A DNA stretch of 64,000 bases from Trypanosoma brucei (taxonomy: Eukaryota): assembly GCA_000002445.1 (NCBI GenBank), contig CP000066.1:704001-768000 (forward strand), given 5' to 3'. A program made the translations under genes and the position numbers. Positions 42,906 through 53,297 of the stretch are shown piece by piece. Position 1 is the first letter of the stretch. Each line of letters opens with the position of its first letter. The notes under the pieces were generated by a model. That model worked only from the letters and a program-made list of their open reading frames with translations. It made no database searches and was not told where the DNA came from.

Positions 42906-44162
42906 TCAGTCCGTGTCTTCGCCTTCATCGTCTTCGGCATCTTCATTTCTTTCCTCTTTTGTATGTTCCTCTTCACCAAGTACGAAAGGACCAGCGACTA
43001 CCTTAAGAATACCTCCACGCTTCGCCATCTCAATTTTCATCATCTCAATCGCCTCCTTCATGCGAACAATTCCCTCCTCTTTCAGCTCCGTCTTTGCGCG
43101 TAACCGATATTTGGGTGGTCCAACAATTGTTACGGAAATGGGAATGAGTGGATCCTTTCCAGCCTTAAAGTCGCGGCCAACCAGTAAAACTTCCCGTAGC
43201 GCATTCACACCATCGCATTGAAAACATGTCATTTCAATATCAGCATGAATGGTTGCAATTTCTGTTCGCATGGTGTGCTCCAGCGTTGTCATGAGCACCT
43301 TTATTTCAGCTTCAGATATTTCCAGATCCCCGAGAATACCCTTCACATCTTTGGTTTGGTTCAGTTCATAGAGCCATTCCCATGCGTGTTTACCGGGTTG
43401 GCGACGGTACAAGGGGTAAGCAATTCTTTTCATAGCTTCCGCTGGGGGAACACCGCATTCATCCGCCACATGACACACAACAGACCGAACCTCATTTCCC
43501 TTGAAGAAACGGGCCTCACAGTCTTTCGCCTCCTTTAGCGTAACCTGTTTCTTGGAGAGATCAATGTAACCCTTGTCCTTATCGATACGAATAACCTGCG
43601 CTGCTTCGTTTTTACCTACTTTGATGACCTTACCGATGGCACGAATGCGAATCCTCGTGATTTCCGTGTATGGAATGATGCCTTCATGGTTGCCATACTC
43701 CAGTAGCTGCACCACAGCGGAAGTATCATTCACCTGAATAACCTTCACCCAAACAACATCACTCTCCTTTGGTAACTTTTCCTCATAAAAGTAAACATCA
43801 GCTCCATCCCATGTGGTTACGCCTAAGCAGGCACCTACGAACTTCTGCTGGCGCTTATTGAGGTCCTTAATCCATTGTTGCTTTGCTCCATCACCTTTAC
43901 TGACTACTTCTGTTCCGGCAGTGGCAGCTGCAGGCGACACAATTGCGGCTTTTTCCAACAATACCACCAAACTTTCAAATGCAGAAGAGTCCAGAGGTAC
44001 GCCGAAGGGTTCTGCGATGAGTAACTTCCTTCGGGATAAGTTGGCATGAAGGCGGAAATACTCCTTTGGAACTTGGAAGTACACGCCATCTGTTGTTTGG
44101 CAGCAGCACTTCGTTTTGTAGTCTACATTATCCGGACTCTCCACTATACCGTAAGCTGCCAT
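42906..44162 (-). CDS. eukaryotic translation initiation factor 2 alpha subunit (kinetoplastid type with an N-terminal extension of about 100 aa)
   Basis: The S1 domain and eIF2-alpha core align with human eIF2S1 ([31 protein letters not shown] versus [25 protein letters not shown]). The regulatory Ser51 position is occupied by Thr at residue 169 ([11 protein letters not shown]), as described for trypanosomatid eIF2-alpha. The C-terminus is acidic. From memory this is Tb927.3.2900 (unverified). Confidence 0.9.
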   Translation of the reverse strand: [418 protein letters not shown]

Positions 44163-45535: not shown

Positions 45536-45946
45536 TTATCTGACGGAGGACATCATTTTCTCCGGTATTCCGTCACGTTCAACAGAACCGCTGCCTTCAT
45601 TAAATTCCCGAGTAAAGCTGTCATTGGATTCATTGAAAAGCGCCTCGATGGCATCGCGATCATCCTGCCCGAGAAACGCCCCTCGCGCCGCTCCATCAGC
45701 TCTCCAATCGCTACCGGCACCTGCGGGACTTCCACCGATCCAATTGCCAAAAGAACCGCCCAAATCCTCTTCAGGTTCCTGCAATTTAATGCTGAGTTTG
45801 TCATGTTTCTCACGTAATGTTGACAATTCTGCCAACAAACGCGCCCGCACTAATTCCTCCCGAGCCGCATCAGCAGCCGCGTCGCCGCGGTCACCCTCTG
45901 ATCTCCTCTTCTGAAGGTTCCTTTCCTTCTGGGACTGCCTTCCCAT
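45536..45946 (-). CDS. small hypothetical protein (136 aa), basic N-terminus, predicted coiled segment
   Basis: ATG at 45946. GC-rich coding-like island within a very AT-rich spacer. The coding-strand PPT is 45975-46060. No similarity recognised. Confidence 0.4.
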   Translation of the reverse strand: MGRQSQKERNLQKRRSEGDRGDAAADAAREELVRARLLAELSTLREKHDKLSIKLQEPEEDLGGSFGNWIGGSPAGAGSDWRADGAARGAFLGQDDRDAIEALFNESNDSFTREFNEGSGSVERDGIPEKMMSSVR

Positions 45947-46803: not shown

Positions 46804-47811
46804 TTAGTTAACAACCCTAATAATGTCATTGGGATAAACATATGAAAAAGCAGCCGCCACATCCAGGCATGACAGCGCATTTACGAGAAATAGTGGCAGC
46901 CCTAATTCATCAAATACCCACAAACCTAACGAGCCCTCATGCACATCATGTCCCGCCTCTCTGAACTCTTCAGGTGTTCCCCATATCGTACACCAACAAC
47001 CAGACAAGATGCAGTAACGCCGAATGCAGTCCTCAATATCCTTTGGAAAAGTGGCACTTCGTGTGAGGACACTGACGGGGGTAAATTCCCGAAAGAATAT
47101 GAAAGCAGAGAAGTGGTTGATGTCATTAGTGCTTGTAATTCCGTTTCGTTTAACTTTGGGTTTGTACTTGGCAGACGTTGTGACGAATTCAGACAAGTTC
47201 ATGACACGACATCGCTCACCTCGATCATTATGAACCAGCACCGACGGTATGGCGCCCCCAGAACCAGCACCAGCAGAAAAGGCAGCAGAGAAGTCGCAAT
47301 GAAGATAAAGAGAAAGTGTGTTCATTCCCTTCATAAAATACCGCAACTCACCCGTGCTGAGCCAAAATGGAGATGTGTAATGACGTTCTTCCGCCAGTCC
47401 GACTGCCTCTTTCATTACCGTCACATCATCCGTTAAAGCCACGCCACGCATTGAGAGGGCGGAAGCAGTGAAGTCCACAGTTACAAGCGAGTCACCGCTG
47501 CTCATCCGCACCTTCCGCTCAAAAGGTCCATGAATTAATGCGGCTCGTGCGTAATCAACATTCAGAAATCCAGTCAGTAATTCTTCCGGAACCATTAAAG
47601 TCGGAAGAGACTTTGAGCACACGTTGAGGCGTAGTTGTTGCACTTGTGGCCAACTGAGTACATATTCCACATGCTTTTCTTGATGTTGTTGATGTTGTCT
47701 GAACGGCTCATCATGTGATGAAACATATGAATCCATTGATGCCTGTAATAAATCATGGGCCCAATTCGCCAGAGGCTTACAAAAAATGGTGCAACGACGC
47801 TTTTGATTCAT
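46804..47811 (-). CDS. hypothetical protein (about 335 aa)
   Basis: The ORF track starts at a TTG (47865) inside the PPT. The first ATG is at 47811 (MNQKRRCTIFCKPLANWAHDLL...). Coding-like composition; no family recognised. Confidence 0.55.
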   Translation of the reverse strand: MNQKRRCTIFCKPLANWAHDLLQASMDSYVSSHDEPFRQHQQHQEKHVEYVLSWPQVQQLRLNVCSKSLPTLMVPEELLTGFLNVDYARAALIHGPFERKVRMSSGDSLVTVDFTASALSMRGVALTDDVTVMKEAVGLAEERHYTSPFWLSTGELRYFMKGMNTLSLYLHCDFSAAFSAGAGSGGAIPSVLVHNDRGERCRVMNLSEFVTTSAKYKPKVKRNGITSTNDINHFSAFIFFREFTPVSVLTRSATFPKDIEDCIRRYCILSGCWCTIWGTPEEFREAGHDVHEGSLGLWVFDELGLPLFLVNALSCLDVAAAFSYVYPNDIIRVVN

Positions 47812-48280
47812 TTTATGTTGGTTATCTGCCGCACTCTTTTTTTTTTCAAAAAAAAAAAGTAACAACTATAATATTAAGGAGTATTATTAATATTACTACT
47901 ACTGTGAAATATTTAATGTATTCTGGTAAAACGTCGTCACTCACTTCATGAAAAGAACAAAACAAAAAAAACGGAAAAGGAACAAAATGTGAGCAAATGA
48001 ACGAATGAATGAGACAAGCGTAAAATAAACACGTTGCACAAACAGAGAGAACATGGAATCCAAAAATGTTTTTTTTCTGCTTTTATTTTTCTCTCTCTTT
48101 GCCGCGGAACCAATTTAAAAAAAAAAGTAGAATAGAAAAAACAGGAAAAGAACACGGAAAGAAAAAAAAAGACACAAACCTGAGAAAAAAAAAAAGAAAA
48201 AAAGAGAAAAGAGAAAGGGAAAAATAAATATATAAAAATCACAATGAAGTGGCGCCTGAATAACAACTGATAGCAATCCT

Positions 48281-48309
48281 TAATAATAATAATAATAATA
48301 ATAATAATT
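48281..48309. repeat. (TAA)9 microsatellite
   Basis: taataataataataataataataat. Confidence 0.9.
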
Positions 48310-48517
48310 AATATCATCACTATCATAAGAGTAATAAGAAAGGATGCTGTGAGGACACGTTTTGTACAAGAAGGGAGAAACATAAACATAAACACGTGAA
48401 GGAAAATAATAACAACAATGAAGGAGTACCAACGTCAAAACATGGAGGCAACACACAATTCGTTTCAGATGCTTGCCGTGAAGATAAACAATTTTTTTTT
48501 AAATGGGTATATATTTG

Positions 48518-48548
<31 letters not shown>

Positions 48549-48958
48549 TTCGTACGCACAAATTGTGTTTCAATACGGATAATAAGAAAGAAAAAAATGA
48601 AGGAAAAAACCAATGACACTAATGTTATTTATATAAAGTACTTTCTCATATAATTTTTTATTTATAAATAATGGGGTATAAATATATAAATATATAAATA
48701 TGAGTATGAAAAGGGAGAAAAAAAAAAGAGGAGATGGATATGGATATGGAAGTGAGTGGAACTGTGAAAAGGTGGATGAAGTTGTTATGTTACGGGGCTT
48801 TTGCTTTTTCTCTATTTTTTTTTTTCGTTTTTGGTTTTGCTTTTGCTTTTTGTAGAAATTTGGTTCGAGTTTCTTTTCCTTTGCTTTTTTTTCTCGATGC
48901 TTTCTTTTTTCTTTCTTTTCTTTCTATTCCCTATTCCTTATATACTCTCCTCTCTTTC

Positions 48959-48989
<31 letters not shown>

Positions 48990-50954
48990 AATATATTTTT
49001 TTTTAAAGCACAAACTTCTAATGTCAAGCATACCGCCTTAAACAATCAATAGAAATAAATAAATAATAACGCCACATAATTTAAAAGAAAAAAAAATCAA
49101 AACTGCTCGTCATGGGGATCTCACGCCGGAATCCAAAACAAAACAAAACAAAAATTGGAAAAATAACGAGAAGTAAAAGACATGCGGCATTTATTTCCAC
49201 TTGGAAGCCGGGACTTTTCTTTTCCTTTCTTTACTTCCTTTGGGCCTCTGTTTTGTAATATATATTTATATATTTGTTTATTTATTTATTTATTTATTCC
49301 TCACAGTTCAAAATAATTTTTAAAAAATATTGGGACAAATAGGAAAAGATGATGAACATGAAGATGAAAAACGACGAAGGGGAAAGGAACGCAAAAAAAA
49401 AAAGGGAAAAAGGGAAAAAGAAACAAGGGATCAAGAAAAATTACACAGAACTCAAAAAATTAAAAAACAAAACATCAAATAAAAAGATACCGCCAAACAA
49501 ACAACCGAATGAATAAACAAACAAACAAACGCGCACAACACACACAAAAAAAAATTTTAATTCCCACTCACAACGAAATAAAGGCAACAACACACCTCAA
49601 CATCCAAGTTATTGTCACCACACACATAATTACACACGCACGCATATGCGTGCAAGCATCAAACAAAAAAAAGAACAAAACAGAGCGATTACGCTAGTTA
49701 TGCGACGGAATAACAGAATAAATACAGATATAAACATATAAATATAGAAATATAATAAATACAAAAATGTATAGAAATACGTATATGTGTTACTACCGTC
49801 ATCACATCATCATCATCATTATCATCATCATTTTATTATTGTTACATTTACAATATTTATTACATTGTTATTTTGTTGTTATTTTGTTGCGGTCCGCTTC
49901 GTCCAATCCCGTTTTCATCTTCATTTTCCTCCCTTTTTGCGTTGCAAATCAAATCCAACAGACCACTAATCACTCCATTCCATTCCATTCCACTTCTCTC
50001 ATTTCTATTTTTTAAAAAAAATAAAAATAAAAATAAAAAATAATATTTGCTCCTTATCTTTCAATCCCTCTTTTCATTCATATTTCTTTTTTCTCTTCTT
50101 TTCTTTTCTCTTCTCTTCTCTTCGTTTGTTTGTTTACCTTTTGTTTTTTGTTCTTTTTTTTTCCTTCTTTTGTTTTACAAATAATGAGCAAAACACAAAC
50201 ACAAGAAGAAAGTACATAATTCCTCTTTCTTTCCCCTTATGCACATGAGTGTCTCACATATATATATATATATATACACCACGTGAGTGTTTATAATAGA
50301 CGTAACGAATAGGGCAGAAAATAAAAATAAAAAAAAAAACAACAACGCAATAATAAAGTAATAAAGTAATATAATAATAGAAAAGAAAAAAAGTAGGAAA
50401 AGGAACGAAGGAAAGAAGGAAGGAAAAGGAACGAAGGATAGAAGGAAGGAACTATATAAACAAACATTTAAGTAGAATAAAAATAAACATAAACAATGAC
50501 ATAATGAGCAAAACTAAACTAAAACAAAGCCAAAAACAAAAAAAAGACACCAATTATAATAACATAATTAAAAAAATATATGAAAAAGAAAAAAAGGTAA
50601 AAGAGATAAATTGAGAACACATCAAACTTATTTCCTCCTCCCCCCACCTTTTTTTTTAATTCATTTTTTTTCTTTCTTTAATTTTTTTTTCACTTCAGTT
50701 TATTTTATTTTTGTATTACTGTTATTTCTTTTTTTTTCCTTCTTCTTCTAATTTGTCATATTGTTGTCATTGTTTCTTTTTGTTTTTCTTTTTCTTTTTC
50801 TTTTTTTTTGTTTTGACTTCACTCCATTCATAAGTTTGTTACGGGGAGGAAATGACATGGACAATAAAAATGGAAGAGAAAATGCAAACACTTGTACACG
50901 GTAGACTCAAAAACAAATCCCCGCGCCTCTTCTTTTTTTTTTCATTTGACACCT

Positions 50955-51010
50955 TCATTTCAATTTCAATTTCAATTTTAATTTCAATTTTAATTTTAAT
51001 TTTAATTTTT
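50955..51010. repeat. (TTTCAA/TTTTAA)n hexamer microsatellite; left arm of an inverted pair
   Basis: catttcaatttcaatttcaattttaatttcaattttaattttaattttaatttt. Confidence 0.9.
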
Positions 51011-51289
51011 TTGTGAGTGTTTTGTGTGTGATTTTTTCGATTTCATTTAATTTTTTGTTTGTTTGTTTGATTGTTTATTTTAATCATTTATACAAATATG
51101 TTTTACTCAAATATTTTCCGTAGGAGTTTTTTTGCTATCCTCAATTTGTGTGTGTGTGTGTTTTTTTCTTTTCTTTTTTCTTTTCTTTTTAGGTGTTGTC
51201 CTCTCCTTTTGGTTTCTTTTCGTTGAATGATGTTTAGTTTCGCCACTTTCACACCTGTGATGACTGAAAGAAATAATTAATGTCACAAC

Positions 51290-51378
51290 AATTGAATGAA
51301 ATCAAAAAATTAAAAAAATTGAAATTGAAATGAAATTGAAATGAAATGAAGGAAATTGAAAAATCAAATGAAATGAAA
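51290..51378. repeat. (TTGAAA/TGAAAT)n hexamer microsatellite; right arm, the reverse complement of the 50955-51010 repeat
   Basis: aaaaaattaaaaaaattgaaattgaaatgaaattgaaatgaaatgaaggaaattgaaaaatcaaatgaaatgaaag. The reverse complement of the left arm is aaaattaaaattaaaattgaaattaaaattgaaattgaaattgaaa. Confidence 0.85.
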
Positions 51379-52577
51379 GAACGACAGAGATGTGAAGAGA
51401 CAAATAAAAATTTTTTTTTGAAAAAAAAAGGTGGAAAATAAAAATAAAAAGTAACGACCGCAACTCTTTTCCTTTTCTTTTCATATACACCTTCAACTTT
51501 TGTTTTCTTATATAAAAAAGAAAAGAAAAGAAAATCTTGATTTTGTTTTTGACTTTTTTTTTTTGGTTCTTTTCAACCCTCTAATCTCTTTTTTTTTATT
51601 TTTTTGCTTCACATATATAAATAAATATATATAAATAAATATATATATACGTATAAATATCTTTCTTTATGCTGAGGTGTATATGCGCAAGAGTAAATAA
51701 AATTTTAAAACACGTGTAACTGCACAGTGAAGGGGGGAGGAGAAAAAAAAAATGCAAGTGAGAAATAAATCTCCTTTCGTTAAGAATTTTAAAAAAAAAA
51801 AAAAGTAAACAAGGAAAAATTATGGGCCAGCTGTGGCGCAATCTCTAGAATAAACAAAAAAAAACAAAAAAACAAAAAAAAAGAAACGAAACGAAAAATT
51901 ATTTCACCTTTCATTTATTTTCTGTTTGGTTGATTGGTTTCCTCTTTTAAGTTCCGCGTTCGTGACACTTCTTCTCTTTTCTTTTCCTCTTCCCTGCCCT
52001 CTTATTTTCTTTTTCTTCTTTTTTTTTTCGAATTTTATTGTTAATATCTTTCTTTCATTCGTTCGCTTTCTTATAATTTATTTGATCCATTCACCTCCCC
52101 ATCACTTGTAGTCATTAGTCCCTTTTATGTTTTTTTTTCATTTATTTAGTTATTTATTTACTTATTTATTTCCTCTTCTCCTAATTTTATTTTAGTCATC
52201 ACAAAACGTCATTTTATTTTTTTTTCCTTTCTTTCTTAATTTCTCCTCCCCTCTCCCTCTCCCTCTCCCCCTCCTCTCCACCGAAACCCCCAACCCGTTC
52301 CTTCGTTATTCGTTTCTTTTCTTCCTTTTTTTTTTTTTGCTTTTCCTCGTGTGCATCTCTCCCATCAATTTTTGTTACGTTTTGCTTTTTGCTTTTTGCT
52401 TTTTTTTTTTAAAGAAAAAGAAAACGTCGGGCCAAACACAAACACGCACACAAATGTATAGACTTATTGATTTATATTTATATATATATATATATACAAA
52501 AATAATAAAACAAACAAATATATAAAGCAAGCAAATAAAATAAAACAAAAAAATAATAATAATAATAATGTGACACT

Positions 52578-53297
52578 TCAACCAGCGGCACCGCGGGAAC
52601 CCGCATGAACGTATGGGGAACTGTTACTGGGCACAATATTTAATGGATTTGTGGAGTAACCAACTTTAAGCCATTTGCCATGGAATTCGTAACCACTCAT
52701 TCGCTCCACAGCTTCCTTCGCATCTTCCGCATGGCAAAAATATACAAAACCATAACCCTTCGACATATTGGTTTGCTTGTCGTAAATAATTCGCGCCCCA
52801 TCAAGTTCTCCAAAGCGGGAGAAAAGTTCATGAAGGTCCGTACTTGTCACATCAGGGGCGAGATAATTTACAATTAATTGCTTGCGATAACGATCATCTT
52901 GCAGAGGCACACTTCCAACGGGCATGGCATGATGTCTCAACTGCTGCTGCTGCTGTTGTTGTTGTTGTTGTTGCGGATGAATATTATAATTGAAGGAAGA
53001 AGAGGAGGAACCATTTGCCGTTTGATTGGGGTAGCCGCTCATAATACTTTGATCCACAGGTGTTACACGCATTTGAACATATTGCGGACTGGCAGCTGTG
53101 GATTGTTGAGTGATGAAACCGCCCTGTTCCTGTTGAATGGGGCCCTGGTAATGATACGGATATAATCGAGCTTGAGGCTCCGTAGTAGCAAAGGGATGAT
53201 ACGGCTGTTGAATCTGCCGTTGCATCATGGCATATTGCTGCCCGTATGGAATTTGCGTCAGCTGTGGCGAGGTCTGCGGGCTGTTGGGGTAGAACAT
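52578..53297 (-). CDS. RBP6: single-RRM RNA-binding protein with a Gln/Pro/Tyr-rich N-terminal low-complexity region and poly-Q tract; probable RBP6 ortholog
   Basis: ATG at 53297. RNP2 is LIVNYL and RNP1 is KGYGFVYF in the C-terminal RRM. The N-terminal 130 aa are Q/P/Y-rich with a run of 12 Q. Its size (239 aa) and its position between eIF2-alpha and IAG-NH fit my recollection of T. brucei RBP6 (Tb927.3.2930); this is unverified. Confidence 0.75.
   Translation of the reverse strand: MFYPNSPQTSPQLTQIPYGQQYAMMQRQIQQPYHPFATTEPQARLYPYHYQGPIQQEQGGFITQQSTAASPQYVQMRVTPVDQSIMSGYPNQTANGSSSSSFNYNIHPQQQQQQQQQQQLRHHAMPVGSVPLQDDRYRKQLIVNYLAPDVTSTDLHELFSRFGELDGARIIYDKQTNMSKGYGFVYFCHAEDAKEAVERMSGYEFHGKWLKVGYSTNPLNIVPSNSSPYVHAGSRGAAG
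52941..52973 (-). repeat. (CAG)n(CAA)n coding repeat giving a Q12 tract in the RBP6-like protein
   Basis: Plus strand ctgctgctgctgctgttgttgttgttgttgttg within the CDS. Confidence 0.95.

What the first reader, a model, noticed from the sequence alone, without database searches (positions are those of the whole stretch)
50955..51378. Inverted pair of hexamer microsatellites about 280 nt apart; potential 50-60 nt RNA hairpin or DNA cruciform
(TTTCAA/TTTTAA)n at 50955-51010 is the reverse complement of (TTGAAA/TGAAAT)n at 51290-51378. In a transcript of either strand these arms could pair into a long imperfect AU-rich stem enclosing a loop of about 280 nt. This is the kind of structure that binds dsRNA-binding proteins or blocks exonucleases. 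Two microsatellites sitting in inverted orientation is unlikely to arise by independent slippage.
Basis: seen in the sequence. Interest (0 to 1): 0.5.

Follow-up and report, generated by a model that had tools for sequence, protein, structure and literature searches.

The report
Imperfect inverted repeat downstream of RBP6
Two AT-rich simple repeats downstream of the Trypanosoma brucei RBP6 gene form a real, roughly 100-nt imperfect inverted repeat that could fold into a weak RNA hairpin, but it looks like an ordinary, fast-changing by-product of low-complexity DNA, not a proven regulatory element.

Summary
The window is the Trypanosoma brucei-group RBP6 locus, with all genes on the - strand. 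The finding lies 1.2-1.6 kb downstream of the RBP6 stop codon, in a 4.7-kb gap of 27.7% GC.

- **Repeat:** the two microsatellites belong to a co-linear imperfect inverted repeat, 50938-51062 versus 51282-51378. It has 85/91 identical aligned columns, 40 gap columns and three shared non-repeat anchors.
- **Rank by similarity:** it is the best local inverted repeat in the window's non-coding DNA (score 75; background 18.5 +/- 7).
- **Origin:** this points to a local inverted duplication, not two independent microsatellite births.
- **Folding:** the arms pair in silico (61 long-range bp, mostly A-U; z about -3.2 to -3.6; pairing probability about 0.68 in contexts up to 2.7 kb).
- **Not unusual in energy:** about 10% of unselected non-coding windows fold as far below their shuffles. 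The gap holds 144 inverted pairs and alternating A-rich and T-rich blocks.
- **Variation:** each arm changes copy number independently among three T. brucei-group genomes.
- **No sign of function:** there is no excess conservation, no Rfam match, no known motif in the arms, no counterpart in T. vivax, and no reported chromosome-3 siRNA locus. A 220-280-nt spacer makes a cruciform implausible.

Ordinary; low interest.

The parts
50938..51062 (.). Left arm of the imperfect inverted repeat. It is T-rich on the + strand and forms the 3' arm, A-rich, on the transcribed - strand. It contains the hexamer array and a roughly 18-nt GT-rich insertion (about 51016-51035) that the other arm lacks.
   Evidence: Co-linear inverted alignment with 51282-51378: 85/91 identical aligned columns, score 101.5 versus 51.9 +/- 6.5 for shuffles and a maximum of 69 for other segments of the gap. 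Local score 75, the top of the window scan.
50957..51009 (.). Hexamer microsatellite (ATTTCA/ATTTTA), 8.8 copies. Copy number is polymorphic: 18 nt shorter in T. equiperdum OVI and 13 nt shorter in T. b. equiperdum IVM-t1.
   Evidence: TRF; alignments.
51063..51281 (.). Spacer, or loop, of about 220 nt. It holds (TG)7.5 at 51147-51161, a T/C-rich run at 51162-51190, and a higher-complexity stretch at 51200-51285.
   Evidence: Sequence; TRF. Nearly identical in three T. brucei-group genomes apart from small indels.
51282..51378 (.). Right arm of the inverted repeat. It is A-rich on the + strand and forms the 5' arm, U/C-rich (UUUCA/UUUCAA)n, on the transcribed - strand. The degenerate 5/6-nt array proper is 51316-51378. 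IVM-t1 has a 12-nt (two-unit) insertion.
   Evidence: TRF; alignments.
52578..53297 (-). RBP6 coding sequence (single RRM, 239 aa). The finding lies 1.2-1.6 kb downstream of its stop codon on the same strand.
   Evidence: 99% identity to T. brucei equiperdum RBP6; Pfam RRM_1, E 1.5e-18.
47866..52577 (-). The 4.7-kb AT-rich (27.7% GC) gap between RBP6 and the next gene. It is presumed to be the RBP6 3' UTR or intergenic RNA. A-rich and T-rich blocks of 150-500 nt alternate along it, and the sense strand carries six pyrimidine tracts of at least 18 nt.
   Evidence: GC per gap; AT-skew profile; pyrimidine tracts; 144 inverted pairs.
46804..47811 (-). Downstream Tc-38-like gene (335 aa from the ATG), which closes the gap.
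   Evidence: Pfam Tc-38, E 6e-25; called as a 335-aa gene in T. equiperdum OVI.

Best explanation
The feature is an imperfect inverted repeat of about 100-125 nt with a spacer of about 220 nt. It sits in the long AT-rich region downstream of the T. brucei RBP6 gene.

The most likely origin is a single local inverted duplication, such as a template switch during replication, of a short segment that already carried a (TTTCAA)-type microsatellite. Since then each arm has evolved on its own by replication slippage.

Because the whole polycistron is read from the - strand, both arms are made as RNA, at least in the precursor. By thermodynamic prediction they can pair into a roughly 60-bp stem that is mostly A-U and interrupted every 11-13 bp. 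My best estimate is that this pairing is a passive consequence of the repeat's origin and has no dedicated function.

Shown here: the repeat, its co-linear anchors, its rank in the window, its polymorphism and the predicted pairing. Inferred: the duplication mechanism, the presence of both arms on one mature mRNA, and the neutrality.
For: **Identity of the locus**
- RBP6 at 99% identity to T. b. equiperdum.
- All large ORFs are on the - strand.

**Shared origin of the arms**
- The motif is found only in the two arms, on opposite strands, across 64 kb of non-coding DNA.
- The inverted alignment is co-linear, with non-repeat anchors TTTCATTTGA, CCTTCATTTCA and GATTTCATTYAATT. It has 85/91 identical columns and scores 101.5 versus 51.9 +/- 6.5 for shuffles.
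- It is the top-ranked inverted similarity of 18,348 neighbouring segment pairs.

**Independent slippage**
- IVM-t1 has +12 nt in one arm. The other arm is 18 nt shorter in OVI and 13 nt shorter in IVM-t1.

**Ordinary context**
- A-rich and T-rich blocks alternate along the gap.
- The gap has 144 inverted pairs of at least 22 nt.
- Five inverted microsatellite pairs share at least 80% of their 6-mers.
- Mean fold z of 105 unselected non-coding windows is -0.94, and about 10% reach -3.2 or lower.
- The arm duplex, at -34 kcal/mol, sits between the 1% (-38.7) and 5% (-31.4) quantiles of native window pairs.

**No sign of constraint or known function**
- The repeat region carries as many substitutions as neighbouring bins, or more, and its arms are indel hot spots.
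- No Rfam hit.
- No UA(U)6, AUUUAUU or AUUUA motif in the arms.
- Only the coding sequences align with T. vivax, and its gap has no such array.
- A published survey of AGO1-bound small RNAs lists no inverted-repeat or miscellaneous siRNA locus on chromosome 3, and found no tandem repeat other than CIR147 that yields siRNAs (PMC3447711).
Against: - The predicted stem is robust. Pairing probability is about 0.68 and does not change with up to 2.7 kb of context.
- It has the most long-range base pairs (61) of the 25 best-folding windows that one search listed.
- It is retained in all three T. brucei-group genomes despite the indels (61, 61 and 68 bp).
- It lies beside a master developmental regulator whose control through its 3' UTR has not been mapped.
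- The three genomes differ by only about 1%, so neither conservation nor covariation could really be tested.
- T. congolense, the informative outgroup, could not be retrieved.
- The siRNA survey used procyclic cells, where RBP6 mRNA is low (PMC5568443).
Confidence: 0.7

Rival explanations
1. The repeat is a functional long-range RNA helix in the RBP6 3' UTR. The roughly 60-bp AU-rich stem would regulate RBP6 mRNA processing, stability or translation. It might do so by hiding U-rich elements, by bringing distant UTR segments together, or by serving as a substrate for a dsRNA-binding protein or a Dicer (DCL1/DCL2).
For: - The arms pair in the MFE and in the ensemble (P about 0.68), whatever the context.
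- The fold beats dinucleotide shuffles (z -3.2 to -3.6).
- The stem persists in three genomes.
- It is the strongest inverted repeat in the window.
- RBP6 is tightly stage-regulated (PMC5568443).
Against: - The fold z-score is matched by about 10% of unselected non-coding windows.
- The longest uninterrupted helix on the sense strand is only 11-13 bp, and 48 of the 61 pairs are A-U.
- The arms vary independently in length and show no excess conservation.
- Persistence of pairing is automatic for repetitive arms, which can pair in any register.
- No chromosome-3 siRNA locus has been reported.
- The T. brucei 3' UTR stem-loops listed in the one paper consulted are short local hairpins of 26-35 nt (bioRxiv 10.1101/327346).
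- It is not known whether both arms lie on the mature mRNA. Pyrimidine tracts at 51514-51534 and 51729-51752 lie between the stop codon and the repeat and could direct earlier processing.
Confidence: 0.12
2. The two microsatellites arose independently and are complementary by chance. This AT-rich sequence alternates A-rich and T-rich blocks, so neighbouring arrays often look inverted.
For: - 15 of 124 neighbouring array pairs share at least 30% of 6-mers in inverted orientation, and 14 do so in direct orientation.
- AT skew alternates along the gap.
- Many other inverted low-complexity pairs exist.
Against: - The three-letter motif occurs nowhere else in the window's non-coding DNA.
- The similarity is co-linear across three non-repeat anchors outside the arrays.
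- The pair scores far above every other pair in the window (75 versus a runner-up of 61, which is a (TA)n pair).
Confidence: 0.12
3. The repeat acts at the DNA level. It would extrude as a cruciform or form a hairpin on the lagging strand, affecting replication, transcription or recombination.
For: AT-rich arms melt easily, and the arms are indel hot spots.
Against: - The spacer is about 220-280 nt and the arms are imperfect with indels. Established knowledge is that cruciform extrusion needs near-perfect arms and very short spacers.
- The indels are whole repeat units, as slippage produces.
- The spacer is not inverted in any of the three genomes.
Confidence: 0.03
4. The repeat is a remnant of a small mobile element with terminal inverted repeats (MITE-like), about 440 nt long.
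For: The architecture fits: arms of about 100 nt flanking about 220 nt.
Against: - There is no target-site duplication at the boundaries (the left flank is a T-run, the right flank is TGAAAGAACG).
- There is no second copy in the 64-kb window.
- From my own knowledge, only retroelements are described in T. brucei genomes. A genome-wide copy count could not be run.
Confidence: 0.03

Closest known systems
Polymorphic microsatellites in trypanosomatid intergenic and UTR sequence
   Same: Tandem 5-6-nt AT-rich units, with copy-number differences among closely related isolates. They are embedded in low-complexity sequence with dozens of other arrays.
   Different: Here two arrays of the same motif are arranged as an inverted repeat with shared non-repeat anchors, which implies a duplication event and not only slippage.
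siRNA-producing long inverted repeats of T. brucei (IR1-IR7; Tschudi et al. 2012, PMC3447711)
   Same: Both are inverted repeats inside RNA polymerase II transcription units that could fold back into dsRNA.
   Different: - Those have arms of 422-10,011 bp at 99% identity or more, with documented AGO1-bound siRNAs, and none is on chromosome 3.
- This one has arms of about 100 nt with many indels.
- Its perfect helices are at most 13 bp on the sense strand in the window and at most 21 bp in IVM-t1.
- No small-RNA evidence exists for it.
Short regulatory stem-loops in T. brucei 3' UTRs (EP1 26-mer, NT8 35-nt stem-loop, COXVI SLII)
   Same: They are structured elements in the 3' UTRs of developmentally regulated genes (bioRxiv 10.1101/327346).
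   Different: Those are local hairpins of 26-35 nt with experimentally shown function. This is a long-range pairing across about 220-280 nt with no functional data.
Cruciform-forming palindromes
   Same: AT-rich inverted symmetry.
   Different: The spacer of hundreds of nucleotides and the gapped, imperfect arms are outside the range in which extrusion is expected (established knowledge).

Membership tests
Microsatellite / simple sequence repeat | Head-to-tail copies of a 1-6-nt unit | tested here: met
   50957-51009: period 6, 8.8 copies, 93% matches. 51316-51347: period 6, 5.7 copies, 85% matches. The second array is degenerate, with mixed 5/6-nt units.
Microsatellite / simple sequence repeat | Copy-number polymorphism among close relatives | tested here: met
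   One arm has +12 nt in IVM-t1. The other is 18 nt shorter in OVI and 13 nt shorter in IVM-t1.
Imperfect inverted repeat (fold-back sequence) | Arms reverse-complementary beyond what composition and local repeat content give | tested here: met
   Score 101.5 versus 51.9 +/- 6.5 for shuffles and a maximum of 69 for other segments of the gap. Top of 18,348 neighbouring pairs.
Imperfect inverted repeat (fold-back sequence) | Predicted intramolecular pairing of the arms | tested here: met
   61 long-range bp in the MFE. Pairing probability about 0.68.
T. brucei siRNA-producing long inverted repeats (PMC3447711) | Arms of several hundred bp or more at about 99% identity | tested here: not met
   Arms are about 97-125 nt, with 40 gap columns in the alignment. 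The published set spans 422-10,011 bp.
T. brucei siRNA-producing long inverted repeats (PMC3447711) | AGO1-bound 22-25-nt small RNAs mapping to the arms | not testable with these tools
   No read data are available here. The published tables list no chromosome-3 locus, but the cells were procyclic.
Functional structured RNA element | Conservation with compensatory changes across species | tested here: inconclusive
   Only genomes about 1% diverged were available. The T. vivax UTR does not align. T. congolense could not be retrieved.
Functional structured RNA element | Folding stability exceptional relative to native neighbouring sequence | tested here: not met
   z of -3.2 to -3.6 is matched or beaten by about 10% of unselected non-coding windows. 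The duplex energy lies within the top 1-5% of native window pairs, not beyond it.
Rfam RNA families | Match to a curated covariance model | tested here: not met
   No hit at gathering score in the window. Only sub-threshold noise appears in 47800-52700, none of it on the repeat.
Cruciform-forming palindrome | Near-perfect arms with a very short spacer | tested here: not met
   The spacer is about 220-305 nt and the arms are gapped.
MITE-like element with terminal inverted repeats | Target-site duplication and multiple genomic copies | tested here: not met
   No duplication flanks the arms and there is no second copy in 64 kb. The genome-wide copy number was not testable.

The most novel reading that the evidence does not exclude
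The inverted repeat would fold in the RBP6 transcript into a roughly 60-bp AU-rich helix that acts as a cis-regulatory switch for this master regulator of metacyclogenesis. For example, it could be a nuclear Dicer (DCL2) or dsRNA-binding-protein substrate. Arm-derived small RNAs could then target other RBP6 transcripts and keep RBP6 low outside the fly stages.
Probability: 0.06. Interest if true: 0.6.

Novelty: new member of a known kind. Interest (0 to 1): 0.18.

Why it matters
How RBP6 itself is switched on is still unknown, although overexpressing it drives procyclic trypanosomes to infective metacyclic forms. Any structured element in its long 3' region is therefore a cheap candidate for reporter tests. 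As it stands, though, the feature mainly shows that low-complexity trypanosome intergenic sequence is full of self-complementary repeats. Folding z-scores against shuffled controls overstate how unusual such repeats are. Native neighbouring sequence is the right control.

Tried and rejected
- **T. congolense RBP6 locus.** The exact protein is not on record, so the most informative outgroup test failed.
- **More isolates through neighbouring genes.** The look-up of the upstream 302-aa neighbour found nothing. The Tc-38-like gene returned only the same T. equiperdum OVI contig.
- **T. vivax orthologous gap.** Only the coding sequences align; all UTR matches are low-complexity. No (TTTCAA)n array and no comparable inverted repeat sits at the matching position.
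- **Rfam and tRNA scans.** Rfam gave nothing relevant at E-value or gathering thresholds. The tRNA scan found none.
- **Known trypanosome 3' UTR motifs.** The RBP10 motif UA(U)6, the ARE AUUUAUU that RBP6 binds in vitro (PMC3794602) and AUUUA are all absent from both arms. In the gap, AUUUAUU is as frequent on the antisense strand (11) as on the sense strand (8), so its abundance reflects composition.
- **RNA-thermometer idea (27 C fly versus 37 C mammal).** Predicted arm pairing barely changes (0.70 to 0.68), so I rejected it.
- **Literature on RBP6 3' UTR ends or elements.** Nothing was found in the held library.
- **Cruciform and MITE readings.** Rejected on spacer length, arm imperfection, and the lack of a target-site duplication or second copy.

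Full report
**Where this is**

All ORFs of 200 aa or more that have homology support lie on the - strand. The ORF at 52578-53297 (-) is a single-RRM protein, 99% identical to RBP6 of Trypanosoma brucei equiperdum, 84% to the T. congolense protein and 51% to the T. vivax protein. Its neighbours are a Tc-38-like gene (46804-47811, -) and eIF2-alpha (42906-44162, -). The window is therefore a T. brucei-group polycistron read from the - strand, at the RBP6 (Tb927.3.2930) locus.

The finding (50955-51378) lies 1.2-1.6 kb downstream of the RBP6 stop codon. It sits in a 4,712-nt gap (47866-52577) that is the longest and most AT-rich non-coding stretch of the window, at 27.7% GC versus 33-49% for the other gaps. 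Whether the mature RBP6 3' UTR covers the finding is an inference. The sense strand has six pyrimidine tracts of at least 18 nt in this gap, two of them between the stop codon and the finding. I found no paper that maps the UTR.

**Checking the observation**

Arm 1 is a clean hexamer array (50957-51009, 8.8 copies, 93% matches). Arm 2 is more degenerate than described. The array proper is 51316-51378 with mixed 5- and 6-nt units, and 51290-51315 is not a microsatellite.

The arms are reverse complements: 19 nt perfect, 26 nt at 88% and 35 nt at 74%. The motif is specific. An 18-mer with up to 3 mismatches has 10 matches versus 0.30 expected. Nine of these are in the two arms, on opposite strands, and the tenth is inside a coding region.

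**The repeat is larger than reported**

Aligning 50938-51062 with the reverse complement of 51282-51378 gives a co-linear match with 85 identical of 91 aligned columns and 40 gap columns. Three anchors are not part of the arrays: TTTCATTTGA, CCTTCATTTCA and GATTTCATTYAATT. The score is 101.5, versus 51.9 +/- 6.5 for shuffles and at most 69 for any other segment of the gap.

I also scanned every non-coding 120-nt segment against the reverse complement of its neighbours 40-620 nt away (18,348 pairs). This pair is first, at 75. The mean is 18.5, the sd 7.0 and the 99.9th percentile 61. The runner-up is a (TA)n pair.

So the two arrays share an origin. A local inverted duplication of a segment that carried the microsatellite is the simplest account.

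**Folding**

On the transcribed (-) strand the 451-nt region folds with the arms paired: MFE -76.9 kcal/mol, z -3.2, and 0 of 100 shuffles as good. The + strand gives z -2.9.

The long-range stem has 61 bp (48 A-U, 11 G-C, 2 G-U) in helical runs of 11, 11, 11, 3, 12 and 13 bp. The mean probability that an arm-1 base pairs with the arm-2 region is 0.68. It does not change when 1-2.7 kb of flanking transcript is included. It hardly changes between 27 and 37 C (0.70 versus 0.68).

**The proper control**

Shuffling destroys the block structure of this sequence, so I compared the region with native neighbours.

- Of 105 unselected 451-nt non-coding windows on the sense strand, the mean z is -0.94 (sd 1.7). 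About 10% reach -3.2 or lower. Eight beat the finding, although the finding's own window was centred on the feature and theirs were not. Among the 25 best-folding windows that one search printed, the finding has the most long-range pairs.
- The arm duplex energy (-34.0 kcal/mol) lies between the 1% (-38.7) and 5% (-31.4) quantiles of 70,859 native 60-nt window pairs.
- AT skew alternates in blocks of 150-500 nt all along the gap. The gap contains 144 inverted pairs of at least 22 nt within 700 nt, several of them longer than the best gapless arm pairs.
- Among 124 neighbouring pairs of microsatellite arrays, 15 share at least 30% of their 6-mers in inverted orientation. Five share at least 80%, the finding included.

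By sequence similarity the repeat is the best in the window. By thermodynamics it is in the upper tail but not exceptional.

**Related genomes**

Two T. brucei-group assemblies carry the locus: T. equiperdum OVI (L001/L004) and T. b. equiperdum IVM-t1 (L002). Both arms are present in both.

- One arm has a 12-nt insertion in IVM-t1.
- The other arm is 18 nt shorter in OVI and 13 nt shorter in IVM-t1.
- The predicted stem persists (61 and 68 long-range bp). Repetitive arms can pair in any register, so this is not evidence of selection.
- Across the whole gap the window differs from IVM-t1 by 52 substitutions. The bins that hold the repeat have as many as their neighbours, or more, and the arms are indel hot spots.

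In T. vivax (L003) the RBP6 to Tc-38 gap is similar in length (4.6 kb), but only the coding sequences align. There is no (TTTCAA)n array and no comparable inverted repeat at the matching position. T. congolense could not be retrieved.

**Known functions looked for**

- No Rfam family matches.
- None of the motifs UA(U)6 (RBP10), AUUUAUU (the ARE that recombinant RBP6 binds; PMC3794602) or AUUUA lies in the arms.
- The published survey of AGO1-bound small RNAs in T. brucei found seven long inverted repeats (422-10,011 bp, 99% identity or more). None of those, and none of the miscellaneous siRNA loci, is on chromosome 3. No tandem repeat other than CIR147 gave siRNAs (PMC3447711). Those libraries were from procyclic cells, where RBP6 mRNA is low (PMC5568443), so this is only weak negative evidence.
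- The T. brucei 3' UTR elements listed in the one paper consulted are local hairpins of 26-35 nt (bioRxiv 10.1101/327346).

**Conclusion**

The feature is a real imperfect inverted repeat. It most probably arose as a local inverted duplication of a microsatellite-bearing segment, and each arm now drifts independently by slippage. It can form a weak AU-rich long-range helix in the primary transcript.

Nothing indicates that this helix is selected or used. Similar predicted self-complementarity is routine in this kind of sequence. A DNA cruciform is implausible given the spacer of about 220-305 nt and the gapped arms. A regulatory role in RBP6 expression is not excluded, but it rests only on location and predicted pairing.

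Noticed in passing
window 47866-52577; L003 8661-13278: The gap downstream of RBP6 is unusually long (4.7 kb) and AT-rich (27.7% GC). The orthologous gap in T. vivax is almost the same length (4.6 kb), although its sequence does not align. Length, but not sequence, appears to be kept.
   Followed up: partly
window 47800-52700: AT skew alternates between strongly A-rich and strongly T-rich blocks of 150-500 nt along the whole gap. This produces many inverted low-complexity pairs (144 of at least 22 nt). I did not establish the cause of the alternation.
   Followed up: partly
window 1-64000: GC content steps down along the window. It is about 51% over 1-30 kb and about 40% over 38-48 kb. It falls to 26-29% over 48-52 kb and rises again to 45-49% after 56 kb.
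   Followed up: no
window 52578-53297 (-): RBP6 contains a glutamine run whose length differs between genomes. The protein is 239 aa here and in T. equiperdum OVI, but 237 aa in T. b. equiperdum IVM-t1.
   Followed up: no
window 48498-48548 and 48959-49007: Two (TA)n arrays about 410 nt apart form the second-best inverted pair in the window (49 nt at 84%; 32 nt at 94%). This is trivially self-complementary dinucleotide sequence.
   Followed up: partly
window 47866-52577, sense (-) strand: The gap holds eight copies of AUUUAUU, the ARE bound by recombinant RBP6 in vitro, and five copies of UA(U)6, the RBP10 motif. AUUUAUU is equally frequent on the antisense strand (11), so its count probably reflects composition and not autoregulation.
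   Followed up: partly
window 51514-51534, 51729-51752, 50407-50431, 49393-49423, 48708-48734, 48182-48224 (sense strand): Six pyrimidine tracts of at least 18 nt lie inside the gap. They could direct alternative trans-splicing or polyadenylation, giving shorter RBP6 3' UTR isoforms or non-coding transcripts. No expression data were available to test this.
   Followed up: no
window 45536-45946 (-): A 136-aa ORF on the transcribed strand, between eIF2-alpha and the Tc-38-like gene, has no Pfam match. I did not examine whether it is a real gene.
   Followed up: no
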